Below are positions 14,679 through 15,047 of a DNA stretch of 23,978 nucleotides, piece by piece. This DNA is from a virus. Lineage: Duplodnaviria > Heunggongvirae > Uroviricota > Caudoviricetes. Made by a program: the position numbers and the translations under genes. Where the stretch lies: positions 1-23,978 of IMG/VR virus record IMGVR_UViG_2600254997_000020. One strand, 5' to 3'. The notes under the pieces are model-generated. The model did no database searches. It had not been told where the DNA came from and worked only from the letters and a program-made list of their open reading frames with translations. Positions within the stretch are counted from its first letter, which is position 1. Each line of letters opens with the position of its first letter.

Positions 14679-15047
14679 TTATAATCTTTTAATCAGGCTC
14701 TCAATATTAGTTGGTTCAAAGTAATGCTTATTAACCTCTCCATTTATGAGGAAACCGTCTTTTAGTAGTCGGTCTAGCTCACGCTCTGCTTCTTTGTTGA
14801 ACATACCTGGATATATTCTCTTGTACAACTGAAACGTACCATTCATATTCCTGTAAGCATTCTCAGCAATTTCAATGGAGATTTCATTTCCGGCGTTAAA
14901 TACAGGAATGAATATCTCAAGAATATCATTCTTTAACTTCTGTTTAAGTTTCTTTTTTTCAACAATATTAGAATAAAAGATACCTAAAAAAAATGTGCAG
15001 ATACCAGGAAGCCAATTATTAACGAAAACCTCAGACAAAGCGTCCAC
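14679..15047 (-). CDS. Hypothetical small membrane-anchored protein (122 aa)
   Basis: GTG start with GGAG upstream. One N-terminal hydrophobic helix (WLPGICTFFLGIFYSNIV) then a Lys/Glu-rich soluble region. About 32% GC. Convergent with the dGTPase-like gene. Confidence 0.5.
   Translation of the reverse strand: MDALSEVFVNNWLPGICTFFLGIFYSNIVEKKKLKQKLKNDILEIFIPVFNAGNEISIEIAENAYRNMNGTFQLYKRIYPGMFNKEAERELDRLLKDGFLINGEVNKHYFEPTNIESLIKRL

What the first reader, a model, noticed from the sequence alone, without database searches (positions are those of the whole stretch)
14679..15047. Small membrane-anchored ORF convergent with the dGTPase-like gene
A 122-aa protein with a single N-terminal transmembrane helix and a Lys/Glu-rich cytoplasmic part sits 200 bp from the dGTPase gene. 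The two genes share a bidirectional terminator (14638-14664) and the same low-GC composition, which suggests they arrived together. It could be a sensor or membrane effector partner, or an independent abortive-infection or exclusion determinant.
Basis: inference. Interest (0 to 1): 0.45.

Follow-up and report, generated by a model that had tools for sequence, protein, structure and literature searches.

The report
Stand-alone small membrane-anchored cargo gene
The 122-codon gene is real and conserved, but it is a self-contained mobile single-gene module of unknown function that happens to sit beside the anti-phage dGTPase in one lineage of P1-like phage-plasmids, not a partner of that enzyme.

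Summary
The ORF (14679-15047, minus strand, GTG start with a GGAG ribosome-binding site) is a genuine gene. Full-length homologues of 122-133 aa occur in about 17 different genomic settings, with dN/dS of 0.08-0.15.

The window is a P1-like phage-plasmid. The ORF and an anti-phage dGTPase fill the variable ssb-hxr cargo slot.

The proposed link to the dGTPase does not hold outside this lineage:
- Among 5,426 complete E. coli genomes, 64 P1-like plasmids carry both genes at 99% identity or more.
- 84 chromosomes carry the ORF module alone, and about 30 carry a dGTPase relative alone.
- No non-P1 locus has a dGTPase within 8-10 kb of the ORF.
- The "shared" hairpin travels with the ORF.

In Halomonas, Vibrio, Rheinheimera and Marinomonas the ORF is a one-gene integron cassette with its own attC. 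Elsewhere it is cargo on islands, plasmids and prophages, often beside known or candidate defence genes.

The protein has a conserved hydrophobic N-terminal helix followed by a Lys-rich stretch, which predicts an N-out/C-in topology, and a roughly 90-aa helical cytoplasmic domain. It matches no Pfam, NCBIfam or PADLOC model and no solved structure.

Function is unproven. My best guess (about 35%) is an autonomous membrane-level phage-exclusion or abortive-infection determinant.

The parts
14679..15047 (-). ORF122: 122-aa protein (identical to RefSeq WP_000339558.1, annotated 'hypothetical protein'). It has a hydrophobic N-terminal helix (about residues 7-29), a Lys-rich stretch (residues 30-41) and a helical C-terminal domain.
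   Evidence: ORF list. PHROG 26730, unknown function, E 2e-77. 34 homologues. dN/dS 0.08-0.15. AF2 pLDDT 73.5 and 76.6.
15055..15058 (-). Shine-Dalgarno GGAG, 7 nt upstream of the GTG start
   Evidence: Read from the sequence. Conserved in E. coli, Salmonella and metagenome homologues.
14638..14662 (.). G+C-rich hairpin (9-bp stem, 6-nt loop) with a short T run. Probable terminator of ORF122, and it may also stop dGTPase read-through.
   Evidence: Folding z -2.7 and -3.7. A homologous hairpin follows ORF homologues in loci L020 and L022, which lack a dGTPase. Not called by the consensus scan.
14576..15103 (-). Extent of the ORF122 mobile module: DNA homology of about 78-81% to dGTPase-free islands in E. 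coli and other enterobacterial chromosomes
   Evidence: blastn against fetched loci and against E. coli genomes.
14476..14575 (.). AT-rich junction between the two modules, specific to the P1-like cassette
   Evidence: It lies between the end of dGTPase homology (query position 1563, window 14475) and the start of ORF-module homology.
13116..14471 (+). Neighbouring anti-phage dGTPase (452 aa by the RefSeq start). A separate single-gene defence module.
   Evidence: NF041026 570 bits. PADLOC dGTPase E 8e-149. RefSeq annotation.
15254..15562 (-). hxr, the right-hand boundary of the variable cargo slot (P1 backbone)
   Evidence: 98% identical to P1 hxr/ddrB.
10820..11308 (+). ssb, the left-hand boundary of the variable cargo slot (P1 backbone)
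   Evidence: Annotation of matching plasmids and of P1.

Best explanation
ORF122 is a real, autonomous, single-gene mobile module. It encodes a small inner-membrane-anchored protein of an uncharacterised family.

Shown:
- The gene is under purifying selection.
- It moves on its own. It is a one-gene integron cassette with a cognate attC in marine Gammaproteobacteria. It is also cargo of chromosomal islands, a plasmid, prophage regions and P1-like phage-plasmids.
- Its linkage to the dGTPase is confined to one P1-like cassette that fills the variable ssb-hxr slot.
- The hairpin after its stop codon belongs to it.

Inferred:
- The conserved hydrophobic N-terminal helix anchors the protein with the N-terminus out and the C-terminus in. 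The flank before the helix is acidic, and 6 Lys follow it.
- This places a roughly 90-residue helical domain, with no catalytic signature, on the cytoplasmic face of the membrane.
- Function is not established. The role I favour (about 35%) is a stand-alone host- or element-protective function of the superinfection-exclusion or abortive-infection type. It would work through protein-protein contacts or oligomerisation at the membrane, in parallel with the neighbouring dGTPase and not together with it.

The confidence of 0.55 is for the whole statement. The 'shown' part alone is about 0.85-0.9 and the defence role alone about 0.35.
For: Gene reality:
- There are 34 homologues of 122-140 aa, 55-99% identical.
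- A profile search of 1.84 billion representative proteins found only this family.
- dN/dS is 0.08-0.15 where dS is measurable.
- The ribosome-binding site and start codon are conserved.

Autonomy:
- E. coli genome counts are 64 plasmids with both genes, 84 chromosomes with the ORF only, and about 30 chromosomes with a dGTPase relative only.
- No dGTPase was found in any non-P1 locus.
- The two genes have separate homology blocks.

Integron cassette:
- In Halomonas the ORF is the second cassette after an integron integrase (TIGR02249, 399 bits against a cutoff of 265).
- The 5' boundary GTTATCTT and a conserved attC of about 95 nt (GATAAC...GCGGCGTTAT) are shared by four genera.
- A 44%-identical homologue lies in an array with repeated attC-like units of about 200 nt.

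Cargo slot:
- The same ssb-hxr interval holds isaA-IS1-isaB in P1 and two other genes in SJ46.
- The cassette is present in 64 of about 481 P1-like E. coli plasmids.

Defence-type neighbours within two genes, in about 11 of 17 settings:
- dGTPase (window)
- bSEFIR plus AbiV
- PDC-S08
- a TmtA/MkoA-like helicase
- Mrr_cat
- SIR2_2
- DUF4365-TPR
- an OLD-TOPRIM ATPase
- R-M systems

Integron cassettes as defence stores: at least 10% of V. cholerae chromosomal integron cassettes are anti-phage (10.1101/2024.07.02.601686).

Topology and fold: hydropathy and charge distribution; AF2 gives one helix spanning residues 2-55 followed by a small helical domain.
Against: - There are no functional data of any kind.
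- There is no match to PADLOC v2, Pfam or NCBIfam, and only an unknown-function PHROG.
- Fold searches return only generic helical bundles.
- Hydrophobicity of the putative TM segment is marginal (KD 1.39), and no dedicated predictor was run.
- The defence-neighbour tally has no background control, and integron arrays and MGE cargo slots hold many non-defence genes.
- Classical exclusion proteins usually expose their domain to the periplasm, the opposite of the topology predicted here.
- No convincing promoter of its own was found. Promoter-like sites are no more frequent than in shuffled sequence.
- In the P1 context the ORF lies downstream of, and in the same direction as, the late dar operon. 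It may therefore be expressed late in lytic growth rather than in the lysogen.
Confidence: 0.55

Rival explanations
1. ORF122 is a functional partner of the adjacent dGTPase, acting as a membrane sensor, regulator or effector in a two-gene defence system.
For: The two genes are adjacent, convergent and always together in the P1-like cassette: 64 of 64 E. coli plasmids and 52-53 PLSDB records. Both are below the backbone GC.
Against: - All co-occurrences are 99% identical or more, so they represent one acquisition.
- 84 E. coli chromosomes carry the ORF alone and about 30 carry a dGTPase relative alone.
- No dGTPase lies within 8-10 kb of the ORF in any non-P1 setting.
- The homology blocks are separate and the GC contents differ (33.6% against 43.3%).
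- The convergent orientation excludes an operon.
- The ORF is a lone integron cassette elsewhere.
- dGTPases defend when cloned alone (PMC13519002).
Confidence: 0.04
2. ORF122 is an accessory membrane protein unrelated to phage defence. Examples would be immunity to a toxin, a modulator of a host membrane machine, stress adaptation, or a selfish stabilising factor for the carrying element.
For: - The protein has no similarity to any defence family.
- Some settings have no recognisable defence neighbours: the Enterobacter plasmid, Proteus and the MAG.
- In Halomonas the upstream cassette is Imm33-like.
- Most integron cassettes are not defence genes.
Against: Defence or candidate-defence genes are immediate neighbours in most settings. 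No toxin partner is conserved next to the ORF.
Confidence: 0.33
3. ORF122 serves the phage's own life cycle. It could be a lysis-timing or antiholin-like membrane protein, or an extra member of the dar anti-restriction operon, which it follows on the same strand.
For: It is co-directional with lydA/B-hdf-darA-ddrA-ddrB-hxr and sits 206 bp downstream of hxr, with the hairpin closing the unit. It is a small protein with an N-terminal hydrophobic helix and a charged remainder. The third-ranked BFVD match is labelled holin, but at E 0.76.
Against: - It is absent from P1 itself and from about 87% of P1-like plasmids, so it is not a core phage function.
- Homologues occur in integron arrays, non-phage islands and a plasmid.
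- It matches no holin Pfam or PHROG.
Confidence: 0.07
4. The ORF is a chance open frame in AT-rich DNA and is not expressed.
For: It lies in a low-GC region, starts with GTG, and has no annotation beyond 'hypothetical protein'.
Against: dN/dS is 0.08-0.15, with pS up to 0.5-0.86 and pN 0.07-0.30. 22 columns are invariant across sequences down to 40% identity. The ribosome-binding site is conserved. Full-length homologues occur in more than 10 genera.
Confidence: 0.01

Closest known systems
[quoted passage not shown]
   Same: Close homologues (57-62% identity) are one-gene cassettes of about 600 bp with a cognate attC, in an array next to intI. The product is a small protein whose only recognisable feature is a membrane helix.
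   Different: The window copy is not in an integron and has a hairpin terminator in place of an attC. There is no detectable sequence relationship to any V. cholerae protein in the homologue searches. No phage assay exists for this family.
Prophage-encoded superinfection-exclusion or abortive-infection membrane proteins (T4 Imm/Sp, P22 SieA/SieB, HK97 gp15, lactococcal Sie2009). This comparison rests on my own knowledge.
   Same: It is a small, single-gene, membrane-anchored cargo gene carried by a temperate element in a variable slot next to other defence genes.
   Different: There is no sequence or fold similarity. The predicted topology puts the domain in the cytoplasm, whereas most exclusion proteins face the periplasm. 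Activity has not been tested.
Anti-phage dGTPase (Tal et al.; NF041026)
   Same: It is the immediate neighbour in the same cargo slot, and both are foreign, low-GC DNA.
   Different: It is a different protein on the opposite strand with an independent distribution. The dGTPase is a self-sufficient single-gene system.

Membership tests
Two-gene dGTPase defence system (dGTPase plus membrane partner) | Conserved co-occurrence of the two genes across unrelated genomes | tested here: not met
   They co-occur only in one P1-like cassette at 99% identity or more. 84 E. coli chromosomes have the ORF alone and about 30 have a dGTPase relative alone. No non-P1 locus has a dGTPase.
Two-gene dGTPase defence system (dGTPase plus membrane partner) | Co-transcription or a shared mobile unit | tested here: not met
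   The genes are convergent. Their homology blocks are separate (about 13058-14475 and 14576-15103), and their GC contents are 43.3% and 33.6%.
Integron gene cassette | An attC site (R''...R' cores, imperfect palindrome) at the 3' end, and a GTTRRRY boundary at the 5' end | tested here: not met
   The feature is met for the Halomonas, Vibrio, Rheinheimera and Marinomonas homologues. It is not met for the window copy. There, similarity to those cassettes is confined to the coding region (14727-15014), and a terminator hairpin follows the stop codon.
Integron gene cassette | Location in an array adjacent to an integron integrase | tested here: not met
   In Halomonas L029, intI (TIGR02249, 399 bits) lies two cassettes upstream. 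The window is a P1-like phage-plasmid with no intI.
Known anti-phage defence protein families (PADLOC-DB v2.0.0) | A significant HMM match | tested here: not met
   No families matched at E up to 1.
Superinfection-exclusion or Abi membrane proteins | Sequence or structural homology to a described Sie or Abi family | tested here: not met
Superinfection-exclusion or Abi membrane proteins | Blocks infection by other phages when expressed | not testable with these tools
   This needs plaque and efficiency-of-plating assays.
Holins and antiholins | A holin-family match and linkage to an endolysin or lysis cassette | tested here: not met
   There is no holin Pfam or PHROG match. The P1 lysis genes (lyz, lydD/E, lydA/B) lie elsewhere in the window and are already complete.
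Type I toxin-antitoxin small membrane toxins | A very small (under about 60 aa) hydrophobic peptide with an antisense RNA | tested here: not met
   The protein is 122 aa with a 90-aa soluble domain. There is no Rfam match in 12700-15700.

The most novel reading that the evidence does not exclude
ORF122 founds a new single-gene anti-phage (exclusion or abortive-infection) family. It would be a bitopic N-out/C-in membrane protein whose small cytoplasmic helical domain senses or blocks infection at the inner face of the membrane. Integrons, genomic islands and phage-plasmids would spread it as a minimal module.
Probability: 0.3. Interest if true: 0.55.

Novelty: new member of a known kind. Interest (0 to 1): 0.33.

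Why it matters
If the gene has a defence or exclusion role, it would add a very compact (370-bp) single-protein system. P1-like phage-plasmids would stack it next to a nucleotide-depleting enzyme, and integrons would trade it as a cassette. That would bear on how temperate elements arm their hosts. It would also give a minimal tool for studying infection sensing at the membrane.

Even without a known function, the analysis corrects an attractive but wrong inference. Adjacency within a near-clonal cassette is not evidence of partnership. It also documents the ssb-hxr interval of P1-like elements as an exchangeable cargo slot.

Tried and rejected
- Family searches. Pfam, NCBIfam, PADLOC and PHROG searches of the ORF, and Pfam on all 18 aligned members, gave nothing except an unknown-function PHROG.
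- Profile searches. An exhaustive profile search of 1.84 billion representatives found only the family itself plus one spurious 3463-aa hit at E 6.5e-4. A PDB sequence search found nothing below E 0.8.
- Hidden dGTPase pseudogene. I looked for one in the 1.4-1.5 kb gene-free stretch downstream of the Salmonella and Enterobacter homologues. In Salmonella it is a decayed IS4-family transposase, and there is no dGTPase similarity.
- Acidic upstream protein. I tested whether the 111-aa acidic protein upstream of the ORF in the E. coli, Proteus and Lonsdalea islands is an Hxr homologue, which would have implied a conserved Hxr-ORF pair. It is not (E 0.22).
- Disrupted copies. Apparent disrupted copies in some P1-like plasmids looked like evidence that the ORF is dispensable. 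In L011 the differences are five homopolymer indels, most likely sequencing errors.
- RNA families. An Rfam scan of 12700-15700 found no RNA family.
- Literature. The RefSeq accession does not appear in the literature. The Darracq et al. supplement does not list 'Brigantia' by name, so no sequence comparison was possible.

Full report
**What is in the window**

The window is part of a P1-like phage-plasmid of E. coli. The 2.4 kb around the finding is 99.7% identical or more to 53 PLSDB plasmids and one phage record. These are mostly about 95-100 kb and non-mobilizable. The flanking genes are the P1 backbone:
- on one side, darB-like, pro, lyz and ssb
- on the other, hxr, ddrB, ddrA, darA, hdf and lydB/A

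The order between ssb (10820-11308) and hxr (15254-15562) is:
- a Tn5/IS50-like IS, specific to this window
- a dGTPase at 13116-14471 on the + strand
- the ORF in question at 14679-15047 on the - strand

The dGTPase is a textbook anti-phage dGTPase (NF041026 at 570 bits, PADLOC dGTPase at E 8e-149).

**Checking the observation**

The ORF exists as described. It starts with GTG and has a GGAG placed 7 nt upstream. The gap to the dGTPase is 207 bp and the genes are convergent.

The hairpin at 14638-14661 is real, with a 9-bp G+C-rich stem and z-scores of -2.7 and -3.7 against shuffles. Its T-tracts are short, and the consensus terminator scan did not call it.

The C-terminal part is K/E-rich at 24%. 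The N-terminal hydrophobic segment is conserved in character but only marginal on simple scales. The Kyte-Doolittle 19-residue mean is 1.39 in the window protein and 1.29-1.77 in relatives. The flank before the segment is acidic and six lysines follow it within 10 residues. The positive-inside rule (established knowledge) therefore predicts N-out/C-in.

The claim of identical composition is not accurate. The ORF is 33.6% GC, the dGTPase 43.3% and the backbone about 49-50%.

**Is it a real gene?**

Yes.
- 34 homologues of 122-140 aa were found. They come from E. coli, Salmonella, Enterobacter, Yersinia, Vibrio, Marinomonas and Rheinheimera.
- A scan of 185,579 species-representative genomes added Proteus, Lonsdalea, Dryocola, Halomonas and a MAG.
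- An exhaustive profile search of 1.84 billion representatives found 14 clusters, all belonging to this family apart from one spurious hit. The family is small and none of its members are fragments of larger proteins.
- dN/dS is 0.08-0.15 wherever dS is not saturated.
- 22 columns are invariant down to 40% identity, including a W-PG-F-LG signature in the hydrophobic helix. A KLKNDILEIFIPVFN block is identical in nearly all members.

**Is it linked to the dGTPase?**

Only in the P1-like lineage.

In 5,426 complete E. coli genomes, the ORF module (14576-15103) is present in 148 genomes:
- 64 copies are on plasmids, all next to the dGTPase at 95-100% identity (most at 99% or more).
- 84 copies are on chromosomes at about 78-81% identity, with no dGTPase beside them.

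Conversely, about 30 chromosomal dGTPase relatives (66-79% identity) have no ORF next to them, and their homology stops at window position 14475.

A tblastn of the dGTPase against all fetched loci hit only the P1-like loci and one dGTPase-only chromosome.

The ORF block and the dGTPase block are thus separate modules, joined by about 100 bp of cassette-specific AT-rich DNA. The hairpin lies inside the ORF block and is conserved after the ORF in dGTPase-free loci.

Published work shows that anti-phage dGTPases protect when cloned alone (10.1101/2021.04.26.441389; PMC13519002).

The ssb-hxr interval is an exchangeable slot. P1 carries isaA-IS1-isaB there and SJ46 carries two other genes. The dGTPase+ORF cassette occupies it in about 64 of 481 P1-like E. 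coli plasmids. dGTPase carriage by P1-like phage-plasmids has been reported (10.1101/2025.09.12.675607). The small ORF has not been reported.

**Where else the ORF lives**

Integron cassettes:
- In Halomonas halocynthiae the ORF is the second cassette downstream of a bona fide integron integrase (TIGR02249, 399 bits).
- That cassette runs from a GTTATCT boundary to an attC of about 95 nt (GATAAC...GCGGCGTTAT).
- The same 5' boundary and the same attC accompany the ORF in Vibrio parahaemolyticus, Rheinheimera and Marinomonas.
- A 44%-identical homologue lies in an array punctuated by attC-like repeats of about 200 nt. The record is CP002116.1, which from memory is Spirochaeta smaragdinae.

An integron cassette is by nature a self-contained unit, usually of one gene. 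This is the strongest evidence that the protein works without a fixed partner.

Cargo of mobile elements in Enterobacterales:
- integrase-bearing islands in E. coli, Salmonella, Proteus, Lonsdalea and Dryocola
- a Rep3 plasmid in Enterobacter
- a prophage region in Yersinia, next to a giant MuF-domain polyvalent protein

No neighbour is conserved across these settings. A 111-aa acidic protein precedes the ORF in three islands, but it is unrelated to Hxr.

Immediate neighbours are often defence or candidate-defence genes:
- bSEFIR (E 5e-125) and AbiV
- PDC-S08 (E 1e-117)
- a TmtA/MkoA-like helicase (E 1e-41)
- Mrr_cat
- SIR2_2
- DUF4365-TPR
- an OLD-TOPRIM ATPase
- type III-like and Eco57I-like R-M systems
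- a RelA/SpoT protein

By my count about 11 of 17 settings have such a gene within two genes of the ORF. This tally has no background control.

**The protein**

AF2 was run with 18 and with 20 aligned sequences, giving pLDDT 73.5 and 76.6. Both models have one continuous helix from residue 2 to 55, covering the hydrophobic segment, the Lys-rich stretch and the invariant ILEIFIPVF block. This is followed by helices 58-78 and 85-97, a short beta-hairpin and a C-terminal helix.

**Most likely mechanism**

Shown: the ORF is an autonomous, conserved, mobile one-gene module encoding a protein with a hydrophobic N-terminal helix.

Inferred: the helix anchors a small helical domain to the cytoplasmic face of the inner membrane. 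Lacking enzyme features, that domain would act by binding or oligomerising.

The function I favour (about 35%) is a stand-alone exclusion or abortive-infection-type protection that benefits the carrying element and its host, in parallel with the dGTPase. The grounds are the single-gene integron cassette, the MGE cargo slots and the defence-type neighbours. Published work also reports that at least 10% of V. cholerae chromosomal integron cassettes are anti-phage (10.1101/2024.07.02.601686).

A non-defence accessory role is almost as likely (about 33%). A phage life-cycle role is unlikely (about 7%), because the gene is absent from P1 itself and from most P1-like elements and occurs in non-phage settings. 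A dGTPase-partner role is very unlikely (about 4%).

**Caveats**

- No expression or phenotype data exist.
- The TM call is not backed by a dedicated predictor.
- No clear promoter was found. Promoter-like sites are no more frequent than in shuffles.
- In the P1 context the ORF follows the late dar operon on the same strand, so its expression might be late rather than lysogenic.

**Verdict**

The ORF is a real but functionally unknown gene. The "independent determinant" idea survives as a hypothesis. Interest is modest. It would rise if a phage phenotype were found.

Noticed in passing
window 11373-12912: A Tn5/IS50-like (IS4-family) insertion sequence sits between ssb and the dGTPase. It is absent from the matching plasmids, whose homology starts at 12913. 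Its transposase is split into two overlapping ORFs. The 375-aa ORF carries Tnp_DNA_bind and DDE_Tnp_1, and the 127-aa ORF carries Dimer_Tnp_Tn5. This suggests a frameshift or a sequencing error.
   Followed up: partly
L032 (NZ_AP027501.1) 5266-6347, and about 10 further P1-like plasmids: In a subset of P1-like plasmids an IS1 ends about 15 bp upstream of the ORF122 start codon, and homology to the window stops exactly at 15047. This replaces the ORF's native upstream region and the adjacent hxr-ddrB side. The ORF and the dGTPase stay intact.
   Followed up: partly
window 14953-14959 and 14986-14993; L011 5880-6250: The 5' third of the ORF contains a 7-nt and an 8-nt homopolymer run (A7 and T8 on the coding strand). 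The apparently frameshifted ORF copies in some plasmid records differ only by homopolymer indels, five of them in L011. These are most likely long-read sequencing errors, although slipped-strand phase variation cannot be excluded.
   Followed up: partly
window 14458-14490 (+ strand): The best promoter-like site in the region is TTGATA-16-TATTAT, with 10 of 12 matches. It overlaps the dGTPase stop codon and points into the 207-bp intergenic spacer towards the hairpin. It could give a short transcript of about 170 nt. There is no Rfam match and no evidence of function.
   Followed up: no
L001 17727-18935, compared with window 18539-18552: The reference plasmid pKFu022_2 and phage SJ46 carry an IS605-family tnpB/insQ insertion between ddrB and ddrA. 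It is absent from this window.
   Followed up: no
L022 9680-10015; L026 and L027 9464-9799: A 111-aa highly acidic protein with no Pfam match is conserved at 95% identity about 200 bp upstream of the ORF homologue in E. coli, Proteus and Lonsdalea islands. It is absent from the window and from the Salmonella, Yersinia and marine settings, and it is unrelated to Hxr.
   Followed up: partly
L020 8781-9218; L002 9939-10376: A 145-aa Cys-rich protein (several CxxC pairs, no Pfam match) lies convergent with the ORF homologue in the Salmonella and metagenome islands. In Salmonella a decayed IS4-family transposase separates the two genes.
   Followed up: partly
L033 6001-8161 (CP002116.1): The 44%-identical homologue is followed 17 bp later by a 159-aa gene. 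A trypsin-like protease and a 139-aa gene come next, all before the next attC-like repeat. This distant relative may therefore be part of a multi-gene cassette.
   Followed up: no
L010 6889-7884 (Marinomonas): The gene just upstream of the ORF cassette is a PF06189 5'-nucleotidase that matches the PADLOC candidate PDC-S08 (E 1e-117). This is a second case of a nucleotide-metabolising (candidate) defence gene lying next to the ORF. It is probably coincidental within a cassette array.
   Followed up: no
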